Source: an uncultured Candidatus Saccharibacteria bacterium | GTDB taxonomy: Bacteria > Patescibacteriota > Minisyncoccia > Minisyncoccales > PEYH01 | DNA: 64,000 nt | NCBI GenBank assembly: GCA_964616145.1 | Contig: CAZTRD010000001.1 | Span: forward strand, 68,024-132,023 | Direction: 5' to 3' | Shown: positions 8,696-58,193 of the stretch, one piece after another | Layout: every line of letters begins with the position of its first letter | Numbering within the stretch: position 1 is the first letter of the stretch | Made by a program: the position numbers and the translations under genes | The notes under the pieces: model-generated | The model's database searches: none | What the model saw: the letters and a program-made list of their open reading frames with translations, nothing else | Told to the model about the DNA's origin: nothing

Positions 8696-8697
8696 AA

Positions 8698-9078
8698 GTG
8701 GAAACCCCGACGGAGCCTATCAACGTCGGGGTACTGCTATTCGCTGGGAAGTATAGCTACCAGCGCGTGAACTCTAGATCTGGCATCAGGTTTCCCTGCT
8801 ATCCCGAACGGTCCCTGTCACCCGCACAGGTTGCACTTCACGCGGACCCGTCTAGGCGTTCCAGATCTATAGGGATGGTATCCTGTACTTTCCTTTGGGG
8901 GTTACCTCCGTCGAGTTCTCGACGGGTTTTTGAGTGAATCATCCCAGGTCCTTTCGGGTCGAGGGACTATCCTCGCATATACCCATCGGTTACAGAATGA
9001 TAGGGCCATCTGTTAAATCTCAATATAAGATCTAACAACTAGCCCTATCGCCATCCTTGAATTCGTATATCAATGTGC
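8698..9078 (-). ncRNA. ~380-nt GC-rich structured RNA, unclassified. It may be a divergent RNase P RNA.
   Basis: Own minus-strand promoter and terminator hairpin (8705-8712/8724-8731, then UUUCCACUUUU on the minus strand). Many GC helices. RNase P-like strings on the minus strand: AAAGGAAAGUAC (8896-8885), CUGGAACGCCUAG, AAGUGCAAC (8838-8830) and GGGUGACAGGG. I could not trace a P4/CR-V pairing. Confidence 0.55.
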
Positions 9079-9086
9079 TGATTTGA

Positions 9087-13596: not shown

Positions 13597-14411
13597 TATT
13601 TGATACTCATGCCCATGTTAATTTCAGGGTTTTTGACAATGATAGGGACGAAGTAATCAAGAAATGCCTGGATAGAGGTATTTCTATCATTAATGTTGGA
13701 AGCAATTTTAATACGTCTGAAATAGCTGTTGATCTGGCTAATCAATATCAAGAAGTATATGCTTCTGTTGGTTTGCATCCGATTCACGTAGATAAGAGCA
13801 TTTTAAGAGTGAAAGATGAAGAAGAGGGTATTAATGAAGAATCCAGTTTTGATTATAACAAATACAAAGAATTAGCTAGGGATAGAAAAGTGGTGGCAAT
13901 TGGAGAAACAGGACTTGATTACTATTACCGTCCCAAAACTAAAACCAAATTAGCAGAATTCAAGGCAAAACAAAAAGAAGTTTTGATAAAACAAGTTGAA
14001 TTAGCAGAAGAATTAAATCTTCCTATCATTTTTCATTGCCGAATGGCTCATGATGATTTGATAGAGTTCTTAAAGGATAAAAAGCTGAGAGGAGTAATAC
14101 ATTGCTTTACCGGGGATTTAAATCAAGCTAAAGAATATATACGAATGGGATACTATTTAGGATTTAATGGAATTATCTTTAAATTGAATCTAGATGAAAT
14201 TATCAAAGAAATCCCGATAGATAGAATTCTTTTAGAAACAGATTGTCCGTATCTTACTCCGTCCGGATATGCTACAGATAGAAATGATCCGATAGGGGTG
14301 GAGTATGTGGCAAAAAGGGTAGCAGAGATTAAAAAGGTAGATCTGACAGAACTTATTAACAAGACGAATGATAATGCGATAAACCTATTCGGATTGGACA
14401 AAATACTATAA
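13593..14411 (+). CDS. tatD: TatD family metal-dependent hydrolase/DNase
   Basis: MIFDTHAHVNF, GETGLDYY, HCR/HCFTG and ETDCPYL motifs. ATGA overlap with metG. Confidence 0.88.
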   Translation: MIFDTHAHVNFRVFDNDRDEVIKKCLDRGISIINVGSNFNTSEIAVDLANQYQEVYASVGLHPIHVDKSILRVKDEEEGINEESSFDYNKYKELARDRKVVAIGETGLDYYYRPKTKTKLAEFKAKQKEVLIKQVELAEELNLPIIFHCRMAHDDLIEFLKDKKLRGVIHCFTGDLNQAKEYIRMGYYLGFNGIIFKLNLDEIIKEIPIDRILLETDCPYLTPSGYATDRNDPIGVEYVAKRVAEIKKVDLTELINKTNDNAINLFGLDKIL

Positions 14412-14456
14412 TTGTGATATCATATAATTACCTGACACCATAAGGAGGTGATTCTA

Positions 14457-14561
14457 ATGAAATGGTGTCCTGAGAAAAGGAAAGCGTTCCCGATCCTTGA
14501 GAGAGTCGGGAATGCGCTCGTTCGTCAGTTCGCCCCTCTCGCTGGCCGGCCTTTGGGCTAG
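14457..14561 (+). CDS. Candidate 34-aa small ORF inside a GC-rich structured island (MKWCPEKRKAFPILERVGNALVRQFAPLAGRPLG)
   Basis: Perfect RBS AAGGAGGTGA 6 nt upstream of the ATG, presented in the loop of hairpin GACACCAT/ATGGTGTC. TATAAT at 14423-14428. The unit could instead be a non-coding RNA. Confidence 0.3.
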   Translation: MKWCPEKRKAFPILERVGNALVRQFAPLAGRPLG

Positions 14562-14592
14562 CCAGCGAGAGGGCATACAACCTAACTATTAT

Positions 14593-14618
14593 AAACAGGT
14601 CTTCCCTGTTTTTGTTTT
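14593..14618 (+). terminator. Intrinsic terminator of the 14.4-kb GC-rich unit
   Basis: AAACAGG-TCTTC-CCTGTTT followed by TTGTTTT. Confidence 0.7.
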
Positions 14619-14629
14619 GGGATATACTA

Positions 14630-14668: not shown

Positions 14669-14758
14669 GCCGGGGTGGTGGAAAAGGGCAGACACGCACA
14701 AGTCTTCACGATTGTGTGAGGATGATCCCTCGTGTAGGTTCAAATCCTACCCTCGGCA
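14669..14758 (+). tRNA. Type II (Leu-like) tRNA-like gene with a 10-nt anticodon loop GUCUUCACGA and no encoded CCA
   Basis: Acceptor GCCGGGG/CCTCGGC plus A73. D arm GTG-GAAAAGGGCAGA-CAC. Anticodon stem CACAA/TTGTG (14697-14701/14712-14716). Long variable arm GAGG-ATGATC-CCTC. T arm GTAGG-TTCAAAT-CCTAC. It aligns arm for arm with tRNA-Leu(CAA) at 25554-25640 except in the loop. Confidence 0.6.
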
Positions 14759-14777: not shown

Positions 14778-14847
14778 GGTGACGTAGCTCAATTGGTAGA
14801 GCACTGGGATAAATCCCGGGGGTGGGGTTCGATTCCTCCCGTCACCT
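14778..14847 (+). tRNA. Class I tRNA-like gene (Phe-like body) with a shortened 6-nt (or 4-nt) anticodon loop AUAAAU and no encoded CCA
   Basis: Acceptor GGTGACG/CGTCACC. D arm GCTC-AATTGGTA-GAGC. Stem CTGGG/CCCGG (14804-14808/14815-14819) encloses only ATAAAT. T arm TGGGG-TTCGATT-CCTCC. Total body is 69 nt. Confidence 0.55.
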
Positions 14848-29070: not shown

Positions 29071-29200
29071 AATTTCTTTATGTTTCTATTATATCAAAAC
29101 ATGGATTGACTACAAAATGCAATTGTTATAACATTTCTTTTAGTAGGCAAGAATGGTTCTTGCCAATTCGCAAACTTGCGAGAAAGGGTGGGTGAAAGTT

Positions 29201-29605
29201 ATGGAAGAAAAGAGCGTTCTTCAGTTGTATTCGATTCTCCTGCTCCATCCTGAAGTTCTGGATCCGCTGAAGCACTTGGGGCTGCCTCGGGATATCAAGC
29301 CCGAAGATCTGATCAGCTGCCTTGAGCTGTATCAGAGGATAGGGAAGTCCTATCAAGAACTTGTTCCTGAGGGAGATGACGGGGAGAGCGAAAGATTGAG
29401 GCTAGTTCACGATCTTCTCGAAGAGCTCTCAGGATGTTTCACCGAGCTGTCTGGCAACTTCGGGCCAAGGCCTATTCACAGGATCCGAAGAGCCATCCAG
29501 TGGTGGTGGCATCTTCATCTTCACGAGAATCTCCCCGGAGCGAAGATCGACGATCCCTACTTCATGGGGCCCAAGCATCTCAAACTGGATCCGGAGCGGG
29601 GATAG
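29201..29605 (+). CDS. GC-rich hypothetical protein (134 aa, acidic, helical-looking), island gene
   Basis: Preceded by TTGACT (29106-29111) with a TAACAT/TATAAC -10, two leader hairpins, and an SD-like AAAGGGTGGGTGA 5 nt before the ATG. Followed by a strong terminator. Composition differs sharply from flanking genes. Confidence 0.5.
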   Translation: MEEKSVLQLYSILLLHPEVLDPLKHLGLPRDIKPEDLISCLELYQRIGKSYQELVPEGDDGESERLRLVHDLLEELSGCFTELSGNFGPRPIHRIRRAIQWWWHLHLHENLPGAKIDDPYFMGPKHLKLDPERG

Positions 29606-29626
29606 GAGCAGTTCGCGAGTTTGGAC

Positions 29627-29668
29627 GGGCTGCTGTTCGACGGACCAGCAGCCCACTTCTTTTGTTTG
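29627..29668 (+). terminator. Intrinsic terminator of the 29-kb island gene
   Basis: GGGCTGCTG-10 nt-CAGCAGCCC followed by ACTTCTTTTGTTTG. Confidence 0.7.
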
Positions 29669-29684
29669 CTAAATATCCAAAAGG

Positions 29685-30254
29685 ATGTATAATAACAAAG
29701 ACAATATGAATAAATTTCTTCAGATAGTTTGGGAATTAGTAAAAATTGGAGCAATAGCCTTGCTGATTGTAATACCAATCAGGCAATTTGTTTTCCAACC
29801 CTTTATCGTCAGGGGAGCAAGCATGGAGCCCAACTTTGAAGACTTTGATTACTTGATTATCAATGAGATAAGTTACAGATTTGATGACCCAGACAGAGGA
29901 GACGTTGTCATATTTGATAGTCCGATGAATTCATCCCAGAGATTCATAAAAAGAATAATTGGTTTGCCTGGAGAAACAGTCACAATCCAGTCAGGAGAAA
30001 TTGCCATCAAAACAGAAAGCAAGACAATTACTTTGAATGAAGATATGTATTTGCCAACCAGTACCGTGACATCTAATTCCGGTCCTACTGTTCTTGGAGA
30101 AGATGAATATTTTGTCATGGGAGACAATAGACAATATTCATATGATTCTAGAATATTCGGAGCCGTTAAAAGAAATACAATAATAGGAAAAGTGGCTTTA
30201 AGATTTTCTATAGGTGGAGTTTTCGCCAGAAATCTTTTCCAAATAGCTCAATAA
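29685..30254 (+). CDS. lepB: Signal peptidase I
   Basis: N-terminal TM segment, catalytic Ser box GASMEPNF, Lys box KRIIGLPGE, GDNRQYSYDSR. Confidence 0.9.
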   Translation: MYNNKDNMNKFLQIVWELVKIGAIALLIVIPIRQFVFQPFIVRGASMEPNFEDFDYLIINEISYRFDDPDRGDVVIFDSPMNSSQRFIKRIIGLPGETVTIQSGEIAIKTESKTITLNEDMYLPTSTVTSNSGPTVLGEDEYFVMGDNRQYSYDSRIFGAVKRNTIIGKVALRFSIGGVFARNLFQIAQ

Positions 30255-38792: not shown

Positions 38793-38821
38793 TTGACGAA
38801 TACAATATAGTATGCTATGGT
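38793..38821 (+). promoter_or_regulatory. Promoter of the 38.8-kb GC-rich island (TTGACG-17 nt-TATGGT)
   Basis: Good -35/-10 spacing immediately after the comEC stop. Confidence 0.5.
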
Positions 38822-38852
38822 ATGGATACATGGGGGAGAGGAGGATGGTATC

Positions 38853-39056
38853 ATGCCCAGAGGACAAGGAAACAAATCCAAGCCGGGCCCCAAGAAGCCG
38901 CCCGACAAGCTATTGATCTACATCCCGCAGTCGAAGGTTGCGCGGCAACCTGTCGAGCGGCTGATGAAGATCGGCGCGAAAAAGGATCGGTCCGTCAGCT
39001 ACCTCGTCGTCGAGGCCATTCTGCAGTACCTCGACCGTGAGGAGAACAAGTCGTAG
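38853..39056 (+). CDS. Ribbon-helix-helix (CopG/Arc-like) DNA-binding protein, 67 aa, GC-rich island gene
   Basis: SD GAGGAGGA 7 nt before the ATG. Lys/Pro-rich tail, then a beta-strand (LLIYIP) and two helices (VERLMKIGAKK, SVSYLVVEAILQYLDRE). Confidence 0.65.
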   Translation: MPRGQGNKSKPGPKKPPDKLLIYIPQSKVARQPVERLMKIGAKKDRSVSYLVVEAILQYLDREENKS

Positions 39057-39088
39057 CTCGTGAGAGCTACAAGAAAGGAGGTGGTCTC

Positions 39089-39109
39089 ATGAAGACGGGG
39101 CCGCCGTAA
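39089..39109 (+). CDS. Candidate 6-codon mini-ORF MKTGPP-stop
   Basis: Perfect RBS AAAGGAGGTG 6 nt upstream. It ends in Pro-Pro-stop. It lies between two hairpins and the island terminator. Confidence 0.25.
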   Translation: MKTGPP

Positions 39110-39140
39110 CAAGCTGTACATTGGAGAGATCAGGCTCTCC

Positions 39141-39186
39141 GGGGGACCGGTGCCCGCATGCACTTCAGGTCCCCCTCATCTTTTTT
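39141..39186 (+). terminator. Intrinsic terminator of the 38.8-kb island
   Basis: GGGGGACC-19 nt-GGTCCCCC followed by TCATCTTTTTT. Confidence 0.7.
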
Positions 39187-39230
39187 AAATCAAGAAACTC
39201 TGATAGAATTCAATATATTAAACAATAACA

Positions 39231-46677: not shown

Positions 46678-49335
46678 ATGTTCTCAAATCCAGGAGGCGA
46701 ATTTACATATAAAGCGCAGGAAGCTGTGATGAAAGCTCAGGATTTTGCCAGGCGCTTAAACCAGCAGCAAGTTGATGCTTTGCATCTGGTATACATTCTT
46801 GTAAGCCAAGAAGGGACTTTGGTTGCAACTCTATTGCGCAAATTAGGTATTGATATTGAAGAAGTAAAAAGATTGGTTGCTTCTTCAATTAATCGCATTC
46901 CCCGCAACCAGGAATTTGCCAATCCGGCTCAATTCTACCTTACTCAAGATCTGGCAAGAGTGATAGAAAGAGCAAAACAGGAGGCGATGAAAATGGAAGA
47001 TGAATTCATTTCAACTGAGCATTTCTTGCTTGCTTTGCTTGATGTTCCATCAGAAGCAAGAAATATTTTAGATAAATATGTTTCCAAAGGACTGATATAT
47101 GAAAATGTTTTCAAGATGCTGGAAGAATTGAGAGGAGGAGAAAAAATTACCGATCCAAATCCAGAAACAAAATATCAGATAATAGAAAAATATACTAGGA
47201 ATCTAACCAAGGTTGCCAAATTGGGGAAATTGGATCCTGTGATTGGCAGAGAAAACGAAATCAGAAGAGTAATCCAGGTTCTTTCCAGAAGAACCAAAAA
47301 CAATCCGGTTTTGATAGGAGAGGCAGGAGTTGGGAAAACCGCTATTGTAGAAGGATTGGCCCAGAGAATAGTCAGGGGAGATATCCCTGAGAGCTTAAAA
47401 ACCAAAGAAATTATTTCTCTAGATTTAGGTTTGTTGATAGCCGGAACAAAATTCAGGGGAGAATTTGAACAAAGATTAAAATCTTTGGTGAAAGAAATTG
47501 AAAAAGCGCAGGGCCACTATATTCTTTTCATTGATGAATTGCATACTGTTATCGGAGCAGGAGCTGCAGAAGGAGCGATAGACGCTTCTAATCTTTTAAA
47601 GCCGGCTCTGTCTAGGGGACAATTAAAGGCAATAGGGGCCACTACTTTAAAAGAATATCAGAAGTATATAGAAAAAGATCCGGCTCTTGAAAGAAGATTT
47701 ATGCCTGTATATGTTTCAGAACCTTCCGTAGAAGACACCATTTCTATCCTTAGGGGTATTAAGGAAAAATATGAACTGCATCATGGAGTGAAAATCAAGG
47801 ACTCTGCCCTGATTGCCGCAGCAGAATTAGCAACAAGATATATTACAGACAGATTCCTGCCTGATAAAGCAATAGATCTCTTGGATGAAGCCGCTTCTTC
47901 TTTAAGATTGGAAATTGAATCAGAGCCTATCCAGATAGAAGATCTGAAAAAAGAAATTCAGAGGTATGAGATAGAAAAGGAAGCGCTGAAAAAAGAAAAT
48001 GACGCTAAAAGCAAACAGCGACTAACTGCTTGCCAGAGAAGTTTAGCAGACCTGAAAGAAAAATTAAAAGACCTTGATTTAAAATGGCAGACAGAAAAAA
48101 ATCTTTTAAAAACGATAGGGGAGGTAAGCAAACAATTAGAACAATTGAATTTTGAAGCAGAAATGGCTCAAAGAGAGGGAAATCTGGAAAAAGTAGCGGA
48201 GATAAAATACGCAAAGATTCCAGAGCTCTCAAAACAAAAAAATTCTTCAGAATCAGAGCTTACAAAATTCAGAAAGAAGCATCGGCTGTTAAAAGAAGAA
48301 GTTAATGAAGAAGATATAGCCAGAGTTGTTTCCAGATGGACCGGTATACCGATAATGCGCTTGATAGAAGATGAAGCCAAGAAGCTGTATAACATGGAAG
48401 AGGCGGTGCAGAAACGCGTGATAGGGCAAAATGAGGCGATAAAAGCCATTGCCAATGCTATCAGAAGAAGCAGGGCAGGAATATCAGAAGAAGACAAACC
48501 TACTGGTTCCTTCATGTTTTTAGGACCTACTGGAGTTGGGAAAACAGAAACCGCCAAGGCCTTGGCTGAATTTCTGTTCAATGATGAAAATGCTTTGGTC
48601 AGATTAGATATGTCTGAATATATGGAAAGGCACACGGTATCCAAGATGATTGGTTCTCCTCCAGGATATGTCGGATACGAGGAAGGGGGCCAGCTTACAG
48701 AACTCATCAGAAGAAGACCGTATAGTGTTGTTCTATTAGACGAGATAGAGAAAGCTCATCCGGATGTATTCAATATACTATTACAGATTCTTGATGATGG
48801 GAGATTAACAGATGCAAAAGGAAGGAAAGTATCTTTCAAAAATACCATCATTATTATGACTTCTAATGTTGGCTCTGACTATATTTCTAATATGGCTCCC
48901 TTGGGATTTGTTACCAAAGCCCAGGAGAAGAGAGAATCTTTGAAGGATAAGATAATGGAAACATTGAAAGAAAGATTCAGGCCGGAATTCATTAATAGAA
49001 TTGATGAGATTATCATCTTTAACTATCTTTCCCAAGAAGAGATTAGAAAGATTGTTGATTTGGAATTGAATAAAGTGACTAGTCGTTTGATGAAGAACGG
49101 AATAGGATTCAGAACAACAGAAAAAGCAAAATCGCTGTTGGTTAAAAAGGGATTTGATCAGAATCTTGGAGCCAGGCCCTTGAAGAGAACAATACAGAAA
49201 TTAATTCTTGATCCATTGGCTTTAAAGATTGTTTCCAGCGATATGAAGGACGGAGCGAATATTTTAATAGATGCTGATGATGGAAAAATGATATTTAAAT
49301 TCACTAAACAAGCTTCAAAAAAGAAAAAGAAATGA
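46678..49335 (+). CDS. clpB: ATP-dependent chaperone ClpB
   Basis: Clp N domain, two AAA+ modules ([18 protein letters not shown]), a long middle coiled-coil. 885 aa. Confidence 0.94.
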
Positions 49336-49337
49336 GG

Positions 49338-49360
49338 AAAAGGGGTGGTTGGCCCCTTTT
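49338..49360. terminator. Bidirectional intrinsic terminator (clpB on +, island unit 3 on -)
   Basis: AAAGGGG-TGGTTGG-CCCCTTTT with A/T runs on both sides. Confidence 0.7.
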
Positions 49361-49425
49361 CTGTTTGAGAGGTCGGTATGTACGAGCTTGTTAATCCCTG
49401 CACCTCCTTTAAAGGTACTGCTTGC

Positions 49426-49536
49426 CTAACGCCCAGAACGCTGACAAACGATAAGCCAGGAAGTTCGTGGTCTTGGTAAGATGTGCCACCAATTCCATCT
49501 TCTTGGCCGCCGCTGCCTGCTTCTGGTCCTTTTCAT
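49426..49536 (-). CDS. Candidate 36-aa Arg/Trp-rich small ORF (MKRTRSRQRRPRRWNWWHILPRPRTSWLIVCQRSGR), island unit 3
   Basis: Perfect RBS AAGGAGGG (49550-49543) 7 nt before ATG 49536-49534. TATAAT at 49570-49565. An overlapping frame also encodes MELVAHLTKTTNFLAYRLSAFWALGKQYL. The coding status of both is unproven. Confidence 0.25.
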   Translation of the reverse strand: MKRTRSRQRRPRRWNWWHILPRPRTSWLIVCQRSGR

Positions 49537-49586
49537 CTGTGTCCCTCCTTACGGGTAGGTGTTTATTATATATCATAGTTTCTAGT

Positions 49587-49795
49587 AAAAAACAAAGAAA
49601 CCGACCAGAGAATGGTCGGGAAAGAGCATGTGTCAAGGATGGAGACCGCGGTGGTATCGTTAGTTCTCCTCCGCGGCCTCACATCCTCTCCGCAAGGACA
49701 CAAGCAAACCTTGCGGTCTAACAACCCCTCGCCTCTTTCCCTCTCGCCCGTGAGAGGGTCATCTAGTGGAGGGGTAGGGTCTTACTTGTTGTTAT
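49587..49795 (-). ncRNA. GC-rich structured transcript, ~200 nt, unclassified (island unit 2)
   Basis: Minus-strand hairpins CCCTCTC-ACGGGC-GAGAGGG, CCGCAAGG-11 nt-CCTTGCGG and GGCCGCGG-19 nt-CCGCGGTC nested in AGGATG/CATCCT. It ends in terminator CCGACCA-TTCTC-TGGTCGG-TTTCTTTGTTTTTT (49620-49587). The 5' end is uncertain. Confidence 0.45.
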
Positions 49796-49825
49796 CTTCT
49801 ACCTACTTCTATGATTTGTCAATGT

Positions 49826-50006
49826 TTTAAAAGCAAAAGAGCCGACCACGAATGTGATCGGTTCTCGGTTGGCGCCCGTAAGGGCAAAGAACATGAGCGG
49901 ATAGGTCCGCCACCTGGAGGAGCTGCCGAAGCAGCCCCTCCTAAGTGGTTTAGTCGTGCGCCCCCGCACGGCCAACTCCCCTCTCTGCCATAGAGAAAGG
50001 AAGGTC
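49826..50006 (-). ncRNA. GC-rich structured transcript, ~180 nt, unclassified (island unit 1)
   Basis: Multi-stem junction closed by GTTGGC/GCCAAC. It contains GTGCG-GGGG-CGCAC, an 11-bp GGAGGGGCTGC-TTCG-GCAGCTCCTCC, CGGA-CCTA-TCCG and GCCC-TTAC-GGGC. Terminator CCGATCAC-ATTC-GTGGTCGG-CTCTTTTGCTTTT (49861-49826). Confidence 0.5.
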
Positions 50007-50012
50007 ATTATT

Positions 50013-50042
50013 ATTTTACTATCTTTGTTTACTTACAGTCAA
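50013..50042 (-). promoter_or_regulatory. Promoter of island unit 1 (TTGACT-18 nt-TAAAAT)
   Basis: Minus-strand -35 at 50042-50037 and -10 at 50018-50013. Confidence 0.5.
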
Positions 50043-50103
50043 CATTGTTTTCCACAGTTTTCTTCTTTGAAAAAAATAATATATTGGATATAATAAAAGA
50101 TTC

Positions 50104-50742
50104 ATGAGAAAAGAATTCGTATTAATAATTGGTTTAGCCCTTGTAGTCCTTGTAGGGCTTTTTAGTTATATCCTAAAAGACATTCCTCAGGATAAAGTGT
50201 CGCTTTTAAATGAGGTTTTCTATGAACCCCTAGAAAACTATATTTTAATAGAAACAGAAGAAGGGGATTTTGTTGAGAATAGTAATATCGGATTGAGAAT
50301 GGCTATTCCTCCAGAATGGCTGGTTAAAAAGATAGAAGGATTGGGAGTTGATAGCAAAGGTGTCAAAGAAGGAGCTATTGCTCTGTATTCCCCAGATTCA
50401 GAAGTTGATGAAATAACAAGCATTGCTTACAAGGGATGCGGAATATCTGCGAGATTTGAAAAGAGTTACAGGGAAAAGCAGTTTCATATAATAGCCAGCA
50501 CGATAGAAGATATAGAAACGGGAAATGAGATAGAGCATAGCGAGCTGATAACTATTTCCCAAAAGAATGCCCTATGGGAGATAGTATTAGATGAAGAGGA
50601 GATAGGGGAAGCAATTATGGTTTCTCTGCCAATAGATGATAGTGTATATATTTTTGAAACCATTTTGCCTCCAGCAGAAAAAGAAAGGTGCGAAACAGCG
50701 TTTAGAGATTTTTTAACAAAAGTAGAAATCACAAAAAAATAA
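50104..50742 (+). CDS. Hypothetical membrane-anchored/secreted protein (212 aa)
   Basis: N-terminal hydrophobic segment. The stop lies 1 nt before the start of the giant downstream gene. Confidence 0.6.
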   Translation: MRKEFVLIIGLALVVLVGLFSYILKDIPQDKVSLLNEVFYEPLENYILIETEEGDFVENSNIGLRMAIPPEWLVKKIEGLGVDSKGVKEGAIALYSPDSEVDEITSIAYKGCGISARFEKSYREKQFHIIASTIEDIETGNEIEHSELITISQKNALWEIVLDEEEIGEAIMVSLPIDDSVYIFETILPPAEKERCETAFRDFLTKVEITKK

Positions 50743-57831: not shown

Positions 57832-58006
57832 ATTGATCGACCTATATAGAGGATCCCGGCATCATTTGTGCATAGTAACTAAATATGGCAAAAGGAAGGA
57901 TAGGGCCTGGAGATATAATGATATTTGTCATCCTTCAATAAAGTACCATTTCGTTGTACTATGATGGTGTTTTTTGCTTAGGTTGAAGTAAAGAGAAAGG
58001 AGAAGA

Positions 58007-58117
58007 ATGGACCTGGATCTCAATCTCGCGATGGATGGTTGGTGGGCTTTGATCAGGGTTTCCCTGTTCTTTGCCTCTGCCTGGCTGGGTTGGAAGGAGG
58101 TGAACTACCGCTCCTGA
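58007..58117 (+). CDS. Candidate 36-aa hydrophobic small protein (MDLDLNLAMDGWWALIRVSLFFASAWLGWKEVNYRS), GC-rich island
   Basis: RBS AAAGGAGA 5 nt upstream. One predicted TM helix flanked by Trp residues. A strong terminator follows directly. Confidence 0.35.
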   Translation: MDLDLNLAMDGWWALIRVSLFFASAWLGWKEVNYRS

Positions 58118-58133
58118 CATCTATTGCTTCACC

Positions 58134-58166
58134 GAGAAAGGCTACCGCTGGTAGCCCTTCTCTTTT
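58134..58166 (+). terminator. Intrinsic terminator of the 58-kb island
   Basis: GAGAAAGGCTACC-GCT-GGTAGCCCTTCTC followed by TTTT. Confidence 0.7.
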
Positions 58167-58193
58167 AATATAAAAAGGACATTCATTTGTCCT
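58166..58193 (-). terminator. Intrinsic terminator of the minus-strand gene 58274-58813
   Basis: Minus strand reads AGGACA-AATGAA-TGTCCT followed by TTTTTATATT. Confidence 0.6.

What the first reader, a model, noticed from the sequence alone, without database searches (positions are those of the whole stretch)
49338..50042. Three tandem minus-strand GC-rich transcription units between clpB and the next + strand gene
All three units are read on the minus strand. Unit 1 (50006 to 49826) has promoter TTGACT-18-TAAAAT, a five-helix junction closed by GUUGGC/GCCAAC that includes an 11-bp UUCG-capped hairpin, and then a terminator. Unit 2 (about 49795 to 49587) has nested GC helices and then terminator CCGACCA-UUCUC-UGGUCGG-U-run. 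Unit 3 (about 49560 to 49338) has a TATAAT box, a perfect AAGGAGGG RBS, a 36-codon Arg/Trp-rich ORF that overlaps a second frame encoding a hydrophobic 29-mer, and a second AAAGGAGGUG with no ATG after it. Unit 3 ends at the bidirectional clpB terminator. No unit precedes a conventional gene, so these are stand-alone RNAs or micro-proteins. I recognise none as SRP, 6S, tmRNA or a riboswitch. This is the densest unexplained structure in the window.
Basis: seen in the sequence. Interest (0 to 1): 0.65.

Follow-up and report, generated by a model that had tools for sequence, protein, structure and literature searches.

The report
Two small RNAs plus micro-gene
The gap after clpB in this candidate-phyla-radiation (Patescibacteria) genome holds two related, strongly folded small RNA genes and one tiny gene for a basic peptide; none matches a known family, and all keep their layout in related genomes while their sequences change unusually fast.

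Summary
Window 49317-50042 (minus strand) carries three GC-rich units (50-61% GC; window 36%). Each has its own promoter and intrinsic terminator. Rfam, ARAGORN and repeat finders give no known family.

The same clpB-to-212-aa-gene gap in four other distinct relatives (ClpB 81-94% identical) has the same layout. One relative has a single small RNA instead of two.

Units 1 and 2 are paralogous non-coding RNAs. They share variable 5' hairpins, one long near-perfect hairpin, an exposed G-Y-YCUUU stretch at a fixed distance from the 3' end, and a terminator. They fold far better than shuffles (z -2.1 to -5.9). Their sequences are unalignable between relatives. In one close relative the first unit is replaced from a sharp breakpoint at the -35 box.

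Unit 3 looks like an mRNA. It has an extended -10, a perfect Shine-Dalgarno plus AUG in all five loci, a 36-53-codon Arg/Trp-rich ORF, and a second conserved AAGGAGGUG-type motif.

Ordinary genes here lack Shine-Dalgarno sites; such sites occur only in GC-rich mini-genes.

Best guess (about 0.4): units 1 and 2 are base-pairing regulators of such sites. A type I toxin reading is not supported. These are new lineage-specific genes of a known general kind.

The parts
50013..50042 (-). Unit 1 promoter, TTGACT-18-TAAAAT
   Evidence: A TTGAC-type -35 box sits at the same place in L084, L086, L087 and L088; L090 has ATAGAC there, and in L091 the box is shifted 18 nt because unit 1 is absent.
49829..50008 (-). 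Unit 1 small RNA, about 180 nt (start inferred from the -10 box). Contains a 5' hairpin 50004-49976, a junction 49976-49868 and a long UUCG hairpin 49948-49910.
   Evidence: Fold z -7.35; body without terminator z -5.28. No conserved ORF: the ATG at the start is absent in L088, L090 and L086, and gives only 8-10 codons in L084 and L087 (read directly).
49885..49895 (-). Unit 1 exposed pyrimidine-rich stretch CAUGUUCUUUG, followed by the small hairpin GCCCUUACGGGC (49885-49874)
   Evidence: P(unpaired) 0.85 against 0.37 for the whole RNA. The equivalent G-Y-YCUUU stretch lies 61-75 nt from the 3' end in all four unit-1 orthologues.
49829..49861 (-). Unit 1 intrinsic terminator and U-run
   Evidence: The AACCGG...CCGGUU-type terminator is shared by the unit-1 orthologues.
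49794..49822 (-). Unit 2 putative promoter, TTGACA-17-GAAGAT (the -10 box is weak)
   Evidence: Read directly. The same TTGACA-17-GAAGAT occurs in L090. L087 has TTGACG-17-AACAAT.
49587..49781 (-). Unit 2 small RNA, about 195 nt. Contains a 5' bipartite hairpin 49775-49724, a middle hairpin 49716-49690 and a long hairpin 49687-49636.
   Evidence: Fold z -5.03. Orthologues fold with z -2.6 to -5.9.
49619..49630 (-). Unit 2 exposed pyrimidine-rich stretch CAUGCUCUUUCC
   Evidence: P(unpaired) 0.81. The motif lies 37-41 nt from the 3' end in all five unit-2 orthologues.
49587..49619 (-). Unit 2 intrinsic terminator CCGACCA-UUCUC-UGGUCGG and U-run
   Evidence: The CCGACCA...GGYCGG terminator is conserved in L087, L090 and L091.
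49565..49575 (-). Unit 3 extended -10 promoter element TGATATATAAT
   Evidence: A TGn-extended -10 box is present in all five loci: TGGTAATAT, TGATATAAG, TGATATAAA, TGGTATATA (read directly).
49543..49562 (-). Unit 3 leader ACACCUACCCGUAAGGAGGG with a perfect Shine-Dalgarno site
   Evidence: CCTACCCGTAAGGAGG is identical in L091. A Shine-Dalgarno site plus AUG is present in 5 of 5 loci.
49426..49536 (-). Unit 3 ORF, 36 codons: MKRTRSRQRRPRRWNWWHILPRPRTSWLIVCQRSGR
   Evidence: The L091 orthologue has 40 codons, with in-frame 3-nt and 12-nt indels, 7 synonymous against 11 non-synonymous codon changes, and TAG changed to TAA. No Pfam family and no homologue in the protein libraries.
49400..49418 (-). 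Second Shine-Dalgarno-like motif in a small hairpin, GUACCUUUAAAGGAGGUGC
   Evidence: A purine-rich RRGGRGGYR motif lies at the equivalent place in 5 of 5 loci. RNAalifold pairs ACCUU with GAGGU, with both-sided changes at two pairs. AAGGAGGTG occurs four times in the window, all in GC-rich islands, against 0.42 expected.
49317..49361 (-). Unit 3 terminator hairpin and U-run, abutting the clpB stop codon (49333-49335); probably bidirectional
   Evidence: Equivalent terminators occur in L087, L088, L090 and L091.

Best explanation
The gap between clpB and the next plus-strand gene holds three independent minus-strand genes.

**Units 1 and 2** are paralogous, highly structured, non-coding small RNAs of about 180-195 nt, built on one plan:
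- variable 5' hairpins;
- one long near-perfect hairpin whose sequence is free to change;
- a single-stranded pyrimidine-rich stretch (G-Y-YCUUU) at a fixed distance from the 3' end;
- an intrinsic terminator.

**Unit 3** is a short mRNA. It has a perfect Shine-Dalgarno site and AUG, a 36-codon Arg/Trp-rich ORF, and a second Shine-Dalgarno-like AAGGAGGUG held in a small 3' hairpin.

**Most likely mechanism.** Units 1 and 2 act in trans by base pairing. Their exposed CU-rich stretch resembles the anti-Shine-Dalgarno end of 16S rRNA, and it would cover purine-rich Shine-Dalgarno-type sites and block ribosome access. In this genome such sites are almost confined to GC-rich mini-genes such as unit 3, so those mini-genes are the natural targets.

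**Shown here:** the units, their promoters and terminators, their structure, their conserved position and layout, their fast sequence turnover, and the restriction of Shine-Dalgarno sites to mini-genes.

**Inferred:** that the three are transcribed separately, that the ORF is translated, and that units 1 and 2 pair with Shine-Dalgarno-type sites.
For: **Real, independent units**
- Promoter and terminators are found in the window.
- The same order (promoter, GC-rich body, terminator) recurs in the clpB-to-212-aa-gene gap of L087, L088, L090 and L091. These are Patescibacteria relatives with ClpB 81-94% identical.

**Units 1 and 2 are structured RNAs**
- With terminators removed, they fold better than dinucleotide shuffles in all nine copies, z -2.1 to -5.9. 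Unit 3 does not, z -0.6 to -1.4, with L087 at -3.2.
- Each copy has a 10-20-bp near-perfect hairpin of unrelated sequence at the same position.

**Paralogy and a shared exposed motif**
- G-Y-YCUUU lies 37-41 nt (unit 2) or 61-75 nt (unit 1) from the 3' end.
- Its P(unpaired) is 0.59-0.91 in 8 of 9 copies, against 0.35-0.46 for the whole RNAs.
- Copy number varies: L091 has one small RNA.
- A descriptor for this module finds it only at this locus in 1.13 Mb of sequence.

**Unit 3 is coding**
- Shine-Dalgarno plus AUG plus an open frame of 36-53 codons occurs in 5 of 5 loci.
- Window against L091 shows in-frame indels and a stop-to-stop change.

**Target logic**
- 45 of 47 ordinary genes have no Shine-Dalgarno-like sequence upstream.
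- Of 30 AGGAGG copies, 7 lie in the GC-rich islands, which make up 3.7% of the window.
- All four AAGGAGGTG copies lie in islands, against 0.42 expected.
- The unit 1 stretch GUUCUUUGCCCUUACGGG can pair with the unit 3 leader CCCGUAAGGAGGGAC at -22 kcal/mol.
Against: - There is no expression data of any kind.
- Pairing between units 1/2 and unit 3 is no stronger for units of the same genome than for units of different genomes, so co-evolution of a pairing site is not shown.
- L091 keeps the identical unit 3 leader but lacks unit 1.
- CUCUUU is one C short of a true anti-Shine-Dalgarno sequence. It pairs perfectly with AAAGAG, not with AAGGAG.
- Only five full loci were recovered. The small RNAs are too diverged for an unbiased alignment, so base-pair covariation could not be tested statistically.
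- The substitution pattern in the unit 3 ORF is only weakly protein-like (7 synonymous against 11 non-synonymous). The same region also shows an A-U to G-C compensatory change in an RNA stem.
- The peptide is not conserved between L087 and L088, although their flanking gene is about 81% identical.
- The 16S rRNA 3' end of this organism is not in the window, so the anti-Shine-Dalgarno sequence was assumed.
Confidence: 0.4

Rival explanations
1. Units 1 and 2 are genuine small RNAs, but they have nothing to do with unit 3 or with Shine-Dalgarno sites. They either regulate unlinked mRNAs through other regions, or they bind and titrate a protein. Unit 3 is simply a neighbouring micro-gene.
For: There is no cognate-specific complementarity to unit 3. 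L091 keeps unit 3 with only one small RNA. The long perfect hairpins are the most constant structural feature, and they could be protein or RNase III sites.
Against: The three units stay together in every locus recovered. The only primary-sequence feature shared by all small-RNA copies is the exposed CU-rich stretch. Unpaired GGA motifs, the hallmark of CsrA-titrating RNAs, are nearly absent at 0-1 per RNA.
Confidence: 0.27
2. The locus is a type I toxin-antitoxin-like module. Unit 3 encodes a toxic peptide, and units 1 and/or 2 are RNA antitoxins that block its translation.
For: The locus combines a small ORF behind a very strong ribosome-binding site, a structured mRNA whose ORF is enclosed by a long stem, adjacent abundant-looking small RNAs, fast evolution and replacement between strains, and an Arg/Trp-rich cationic peptide. 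In my own recollection, the RRWNWW/RRWNWR stretch resembles membrane-active peptides such as lactoferricin RRWQWR.
Against: The peptide has no hydrophobic transmembrane segment. The hydrophobic alternative frame is not conserved. There is no antisense overlap and no 18-nt or longer complementarity. All genes are co-directional. No PADLOC or other toxin-antitoxin library search was run.
Confidence: 0.1
3. Unit 3 is itself a non-coding or dual-function RNA. Its two perfect Shine-Dalgarno motifs serve to bind 30S subunits or another factor, as a sponge or stabiliser. The ORF is a by-product of GC-rich sequence.
For: Two AAGGAGG motifs with similar flanks occur in one short RNA (repeat D2). The second is conserved in 5 of 5 loci with no ORF behind it. 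The peptide is poorly conserved. A compensatory stem change lies inside the ORF. In 52% GC sequence a 36-codon open frame has a chance of about 0.2 per locus (my estimate from base composition).
Against: The AUG sits 4-7 nt after the Shine-Dalgarno site in all five loci. All five frames are open (about 0.2 to the fifth power by chance). Indels between the window and L091 are multiples of three, and the stop codon is kept by TAG to TAA. The unit 3 body is not more structured than shuffles.
Confidence: 0.13
4. The GC-rich block is foreign or selfish DNA, such as remnants of a mobile element or exchangeable cassettes, with no function for the cell.
For: Its composition is very different from the genome. 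It uses Shine-Dalgarno sites, which is foreign to the genome. It shows replacement with a sharp breakpoint in L084 and variable copy number.
Against: There is no transposase, integrase, repeat or target-site duplication. No match was found in viral contigs beyond chance 16-mers. Host-type promoters and terminators are kept in every lineage. GC-richness and strong folding persist in an AT-rich genome across lineages whose flanking gene is only 65-80% identical, which argues for selection.
Confidence: 0.1

Closest known systems
Tandem paralogous small RNAs such as OmrA/OmrB, PrrF1/PrrF2 and AbcR1/AbcR2 (my own knowledge)
   Same: Two adjacent, co-directional small RNA genes. Each has its own promoter and intrinsic terminator. 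They share conserved short single-stranded and 3' parts, with a variable remainder, and copy number differs between relatives.
   Different: There is no sequence or Rfam relationship. The shared motif sits near the 3' end rather than the 5' end. Turnover is far faster, reaching outright replacement between genomes whose neighbouring gene is 90% identical. No chaperone or targets are known.
Small RNAs of Gram-positive bacteria that use C/U-rich exposed motifs to cover Shine-Dalgarno sites, such as RsaE/RoxS and RNAIII (my own knowledge)
   Same: An exposed pyrimidine-rich stretch in an otherwise tightly folded, terminator-ended RNA. The proposed action is occlusion of the ribosome-binding site.
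   Different: The motif here is YCUUU, not UCCC. Pairing is not demonstrated. The host genome hardly uses Shine-Dalgarno sites, so the target set would be a small special class of mini-genes.
Type I toxin-antitoxin loci with neighbouring, not overlapping, RNA antitoxins, such as tisB/istR-1, dinQ/agrAB and zorO/orzO (my own knowledge)
   Same: A small ORF on a structured mRNA next to one or two small RNA genes, with rapid evolution.
   Different: The peptide is basic, not a hydrophobic helix. There is no extended complementarity. The genes are tandem rather than divergent.
Dual-function RNAs with a small ORF, such as SR1/SR1P, RNAIII/hld and SgrS/SgrT (my own knowledge)
   Same: Unit 3 combines a small ORF with conserved non-coding elements (leader, long stem, second Shine-Dalgarno-like hairpin).
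   Different: No base-pairing target is known and there is no homology.
GC-rich islands as markers of structured RNA genes in AT-rich genomes (Klein, Misulovin and Eddy 2002; my own knowledge)
   Same: Islands of 51-61% GC in a 36% GC genome coincide with strongly folding transcripts.
   Different: In that work the islands were mostly known RNA classes. Here none of six islands in the window matches any Rfam family, and several carry small ORFs behind Shine-Dalgarno sites.

Membership tests
Known RNA families (6S, SRP, tmRNA, RNase P, riboswitches, any Rfam family) | Match to the family covariance model at or above its gathering score | tested here: not met
   Only three tRNAs elsewhere in the window reach gathering. 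In 49200-50200 the best E-value is 1.3, with scores 15-25 bits against thresholds of 39-100. Nothing relevant is found in the orthologous loci. ARAGORN finds no tmRNA.
Trans-encoded bacterial small RNA | Own promoter and Rho-independent terminator, with no downstream gene | tested here: met
   and direct reading. Units end 240 nt apart, each with a hairpin plus U-run. The array runs into the 3' end of the convergent clpB.
Trans-encoded bacterial small RNA | Conserved, accessible seed that pairs with target mRNAs | tested here: inconclusive
   A G-Y-YCUUU stretch is present in 9 of 9 copies at a fixed distance from the 3' end, and is unpaired in 8 of 9. No target was established, and cognate pairing with unit 3 is no better than non-cognate pairing.
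Trans-encoded bacterial small RNA | Conserved secondary structure supported by covariation | tested here: inconclusive
   Equivalent long hairpins of unrelated sequence occur in every copy, with significant fold z-scores. With 4-5 sequences that MAFFT cannot align in register, no unbiased covariation statistic was possible.
Type I toxin-antitoxin system | Toxin is a small hydrophobic, membrane-spanning peptide | tested here: not met
   The Shine-Dalgarno-led frame has 13 Arg/Lys in 36 residues and no hydrophobic helix. The alternative 29-codon frame has no ribosome-binding site. It is not hydrophobic in L090 or L088 and is closed in L087.
Type I toxin-antitoxin system | Antitoxin RNA is antisense to, or has extended complementarity with, the toxin mRNA | tested here: not met
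   All units are co-directional and do not overlap. The longest perfect complement within a locus is 7-11 nt, which is the same range as between loci.
Type I toxin-antitoxin system | Peptide is toxic when expressed, and toxicity is relieved by the RNA | not testable with these tools
   This needs an expression experiment.
Small protein-coding gene | Ribosome-binding site, start codon and open frame conserved across relatives | tested here: met
   Shine-Dalgarno plus AUG at 4-7 nt spacing, with open frames of 36, 40, 38, 53 and 40 codons, in 5 of 5 loci.
Small protein-coding gene | Protein-like substitution pattern, or homologues in protein databases | tested here: inconclusive
   Window against L091 gives 7 synonymous and 11 non-synonymous codon changes with in-frame indels. 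There is no Pfam hit. Only the L087 copy is in the 5.8-billion-protein set. No hit appears among 1.84 billion representatives. The peptide is unalignable between L087 and L088.
CsrB/RsmZ-type protein-titrating RNA | Many GGA motifs exposed in hairpin loops | tested here: not met
   Each small RNA has 2-5 GGA motifs, of which 0-1 are predicted unpaired.
CRISPR or TIGR-type guide-RNA arrays | Tandem array of short conserved repeats separated by spacers | tested here: not met
   There is no tandem repeat beyond trivial A-rich runs, and no direct-repeat family other than the two terminators.

The most novel reading that the evidence does not exclude
The array may be a hotspot of exchangeable promoter-to-terminator RNA cassettes. 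Whole small-RNA genes would be swapped or lost between closely related strains, with a breakpoint exactly at the -35 box. They would sit beside a cationic Arg/Trp peptide gene, and together form an RNA-controlled toxin, defence or antagonism module of a kind not yet described.

This module would belong to a wider class of GC-rich mini-genes led by Shine-Dalgarno sites. Those mini-genes would use a specialised translation-initiation route in a genome whose ordinary genes do without Shine-Dalgarno sites.
Probability: 0.15. Interest if true: 0.8.

Novelty: new member of a known kind. Interest (0 to 1): 0.5.

Why it matters
Almost nothing is known about regulatory RNAs or micro-proteins in the candidate phyla radiation, a large group of mostly uncultured, small-genome bacteria.

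This locus gives two concrete, comparatively supported small RNA genes and one micro-gene that could be tested in metatranscriptomes.

It also exposes two wider patterns. In this genome, Shine-Dalgarno sites appear only in a handful of GC-rich mini-genes. The small-RNA genes turn over much faster than their surroundings, to the point of replacement between near relatives. If these patterns hold genome-wide, they point to a separate, tightly controlled class of genes in these organisms.

Tried and rejected
**Known RNA families and repeat arrays**
- Rfam was searched at gathering and permissive thresholds on the window, the region, another island and the orthologous loci. Nothing was found.
- ARAGORN found no tmRNA.
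- Tandem and direct repeat searches rule out CRISPR or TIGR arrays.

**Searches for homologues**
- BLAST of the units against 80 ClpB loci from reference genomes, including about 20 Patescibacteria, gave no homologues. GC profiles downstream of clpB in those loci show no comparable islands. The array is therefore limited to a narrow clade.
- A viral-contig scan with the unit 3 leader 16-mer gave 8 hits, all bare chance matches.
- The metagenome scan with the ClpB C-terminus was swamped by unspecific 7-mers and yielded one useful locus, L091.
- A protein search with the ClpB C-terminus returned only relatives 69% identical or less, which was not useful.
- Peptide searches (Pfam, the 5.8-billion-protein set, 1.84 billion representatives) gave nothing beyond the L087 copy.

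**Pairing and target prediction**
- RNAduplex on whole units was uninformative because it allows large loops. Short-segment duplexes and k-mer complementarity showed no cognate preference.
- Three 12-nt matches to the unit 1 5' hairpin elsewhere in the window are all in-frame ATA-GAG-AAA-GGA (IEKG) codons. I dismissed them as codon-usage coincidence.

**Other points**
- The MAFFT alignment of the small-RNA 3' modules was not in structural register. I therefore built no covariance model and used a hand-written descriptor search instead.
- The conserved TGTGGAAAA next to the unit 1 promoter belongs to the 212-aa gene's upstream region. It stays in place in L091, where unit 1 is missing, and it is not enriched in the window.
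- The unit 1 start ATG as a leaderless ORF was rejected because it is not conserved.
Full report
**What is there**

Read on the minus strand, window 50042-49317 contains three units in tandem between the stop codon of clpB (46678-49335, plus strand) and a 212-codon plus-strand gene with no Pfam match (50104-50742).
- The consensus scan finds the unit 1 promoter TTGACT-18-TAAAAT (50042-50013).
- It also finds three strong terminator hairpins with U-runs at 49861-49842, 49619-49601 and 49361-49337. In total there are six terminator-like sites in 1.4 kb, against 1.3 expected.
- GC content is 51-59% in 150-nt windows, against 36.4% for the whole window.
- Unit 2 folds with z -5.03. Unit 3 folds with z -1.8 with its terminator and -1.0 without it.
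- The 36-codon ORF (49536-49426), its AAGGAGGG ribosome-binding site, the overlapping 29-codon frame and the second AAAGGAGGUG are all present.

**No known family**

Rfam at gathering thresholds finds only three tRNAs elsewhere in the window. With permissive settings on 49200-50200, the best matches have E-values above 1 and scores far below threshold. The whole window at E up to 0.5 adds nothing. ARAGORN finds no tmRNA. There are no tandem or interspersed repeats that would indicate a CRISPR or TIGR-type array.

**Organism and relatives**

The best ClpB matches among reference genomes are Patescibacteria, for example Candidatus Staskawiczbacteria, at only 65% identity. None of those more distant loci has sequence similarity to the units or a comparable GC-rich block after clpB.

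The 212-aa neighbour protein has only six homologue clusters in 5.8 billion proteins. Fetching their contigs, together with one metagenome scan, gave these loci:

| Locus | Relation to the window | What it covers |
|---|---|---|
| L001-L003 | identical | same sequence from three metagenomes |
| L087 | ClpB 89% identical | complete gap |
| L088 | ClpB C-terminus 81-83% identical | complete gap (L089 is identical but shorter) |
| L090 | neighbour protein 55-56% identical | complete gap |
| L091 | ClpB C-terminus 94% identical | complete gap |
| L084 | neighbour gene 89.7% DNA identity | partial, ends in the first unit |
| L086 | neighbour gene 77.7% DNA identity | partial, ends in the first unit |

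**The layout is conserved but the sequence is not**

In every complete locus the clpB-to-neighbour gap, read on the same strand, again shows promoter, GC-rich body and terminator several times over. BLAST detects almost nothing except the unit 2 terminator and the start of unit 3.
- L087, L088 and L090 have three units.
- L091 has one small RNA of the unit 2 type plus unit 3.

**Units 1 and 2 are paralogous structured RNAs**

With the terminators removed, all nine copies fold better than dinucleotide shuffles, z -2.1 to -5.9. All follow one plan:
- variable 5' hairpins;
- a long near-perfect hairpin of 10-20 bp whose sequence is unrelated from locus to locus, for example GGAGGGGCUGC/GCAGCUCCUCC here, GUACCCCCGGGG/CCCCGGGGGUAC in L087 and GGAACAGGAGGAG/CUCCUCCUGUUCC in L091;
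- a single-stranded G-Y-YCUUU stretch;
- in unit 1 only, a small hairpin and GYCAAC;
- a terminator of a type specific to the unit (AACCGG...CCGGUU for unit 1; CCGACCA...GGYCGG for unit 2).

The YCUUU stretch lies 37-41 nt (unit 2) or 61-75 nt (unit 1) from the 3' end. It is predicted unpaired in 8 of 9 copies, with P 0.59-0.91 against 0.35-0.46 overall.

No ORF is conserved in these units. The ATG at the unit 1 start is missing in three loci and opens only 8-10 codons in two others. The five-helix junction of unit 1 is not conserved. A descriptor for hairpin + YCTTT + terminator finds the module nowhere else in the window or in 1.13 Mb of fetched loci, apart from two likely spurious hits in GC-rich genomes that are not Patescibacteria.

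**Unit 3 looks like a small mRNA**

All five loci have:
- a TGn-extended -10 box and a short leader (UACCUACC...);
- a strong Shine-Dalgarno site with an AUG 4-7 nt later;
- an open frame of 36-53 codons;
- a purine-rich second motif (AAAGGAGGUG, GAAAGGAGG, AAGGGGGUGG, AAGGGAGGUGG, GAGGGGGUGG) some 15-22 nt past the stop. RNAalifold places this motif in a small ACCUU/GAGGU hairpin with both-sided changes at two pairs.

Between the window and L091:
- the leader is identical over 16 nt;
- the peptides align (MKRTRSRQRR-PRRWNWWHI...WLIVCQRSGR against MQKRARMRRRGLRRWNWRHI...WPIACQRSGR);
- the indels are 3 and 12 nt, and the stop changes from TAG to TAA;
- codon changes are 7 synonymous against 11 non-synonymous.

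That pattern is compatible with a weakly constrained protein. However, one change inside the ORF is a compensatory A-U to G-C switch in a long stem that encloses the ORF.

The peptide has no Pfam family and no relatives in the protein libraries. It is barely recognisable in L088 and L087. The alternative 'hydrophobic' frame has no ribosome-binding site and is not conserved.

**Unexpected context 1: Shine-Dalgarno sites are confined to mini-genes**

Upstream of 45 of 47 ordinary genes in the window there is no Shine-Dalgarno-like sequence. This was scored as duplex energy with an assumed ACCUCCUUU weaker than -4 kcal/mol. Gene starts were taken as the longest ORFs, which is a caveat.
- Of 30 AGGAGG copies, 7 lie in six GC-rich islands that make up 3.7% of the window. 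Those at 14443, 38839, 39076 and 49544 sit just before the ATG of an island ORF.
- The 9-mer AAGGAGGTG occurs four times, all in islands, against 0.42 expected. None of 100 shuffles reached four.

Unit 3 therefore belongs to a small class of GC-rich mini-genes led by Shine-Dalgarno sites. An anti-Shine-Dalgarno-like small RNA would be selective for that class.

**Unexpected context 2: hypervariability**

- L084's neighbour gene is 89.7% identical in DNA, with 4-fold degenerate sites 47/60 identical. The 66 nt from that gene's ATG through the unit 1 -35 box are 62/66 identical. From the base after TTGAC onward, identity falls to random, although a -10 box and a GC-rich transcript containing GUUCUCCUUUCGG are still there. 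This is replacement, not gradual drift.
- L087 and L088 have a flanking gene about 81% identical, yet all three units are at the shuffled-sequence baseline. The more distant pair, window and L090, shares recognisable unit 3 sequence.
- Several short contigs end inside the array. That fits strain heterogeneity but could also reflect poor assembly of hairpins.

**Mechanism**

The best-supported reading is that units 1 and 2 are trans-acting base-pairing RNAs that present a CU-rich stretch, and that unit 3 is a micro-protein mRNA.

The proposed link is occlusion of Shine-Dalgarno-type sites. This link is an inference. Unit 1 here can pair with the unit 3 leader at -22 kcal/mol. Across loci, however, cognate pairs are no better than non-cognate pairs, and L091 manages without unit 1.

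A CsrB-like titrating role is unlikely, because few GGA motifs are unpaired. A classical type I toxin-antitoxin system fails two defining features that could be tested. A selfish-DNA explanation is weakened by the absence of mobility genes and repeats, and by GC-richness, folding and host-type signals persisting across lineages.

**Verdict**

This is a real, previously undescribed trio of small genes in a narrow Patescibacteria clade. Two are fast-evolving paralogous small RNAs, and one is a micro-gene led by a Shine-Dalgarno site. In kind they are ordinary bacterial small RNAs and a small ORF. The turnover by replacement and the restriction of Shine-Dalgarno sites to mini-genes are the parts worth following up.

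Noticed in passing
window, upstream regions of 47 genes (whole window): Ordinary genes have essentially no Shine-Dalgarno sequence: 45 of 47 upstream regions show none. Perfect AAGGAGG(UG) sites occur only in GC-rich mini-genes. All four AAGGAGGTG copies are in islands, against 0.42 expected.
   Followed up: partly
window 8697-9085: A GC-rich block of about 390 nt with no long ORF and no Rfam match. It folds strongly on either strand. It has a minus-strand promoter TTGACA-16-TAAACT at 9114-9087 and a plus-strand terminator at 8907-8926 preceded by GUACUUUCC. It may be one or two unidentified structured RNAs.
   Followed up: partly
window 14395-14628: A GC-rich mini-gene on the plus strand, just upstream of two tRNAs. 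It has a promoter, the leader UACCUGACACCAUAAGGAGGUG (similar to the unit 3 leader), a 34-codon ORF (MKWCPEKRKAFPILERVGNALVRQFAPLAGRPLG) and a terminator.
   Followed up: no
window 14669-14758 and 14778-14847: Two odd tRNA genes. The first is 90 nt, with a long variable arm and an enlarged anticodon loop that ARAGORN reads as 'ttca'. The second is 70 nt with a short anticodon loop read as 'aa'. ARAGORN cannot assign an amino acid to either.
   Followed up: no
window 38808-39190: A GC-rich island on the plus strand. A 67-codon ORF led by a Shine-Dalgarno site shows weak ribbon-helix-helix similarity (E 0.17). It is followed by AAAGGAGGUGGUCUC-AUG and a 6-codon ORF ending in UAACAAGCUGUACAU, then a terminator. 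This 3' part resembles the 3' part of unit 3, AAAGGAGGUGCAGGGAUUAACAAGCUCGUACAU.
   Followed up: partly
window 57991-58167 and 29153-29690: Two more GC-rich genes with terminators. One is a 36-codon hydrophobic ORF (MDLDLNLAMDGWWALIRVSLFFASAWLGWKEVNYRS) with an internal AAGGAGGUG. The other is a GC-rich ORF of about 135-150 codons.
   Followed up: no
window 50047-50103: The promoter region of the 212-aa gene (TTGAAA-16-TATAAT, start codon about 9 nt after the -10 box, so almost leaderless) is the best conserved non-coding DNA of the locus. TGTGGAAAA is invariant in all seven relatives at a fixed distance from that promoter, even where unit 1 is absent. It may be a regulator binding site.
   Followed up: partly
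L084, L085, L086, L003, L089 (contig ends): Five independent short metagenomic contigs end inside or at the edge of the unit array. This suggests strain-level heterogeneity or assembly trouble at this spot.
   Followed up: no
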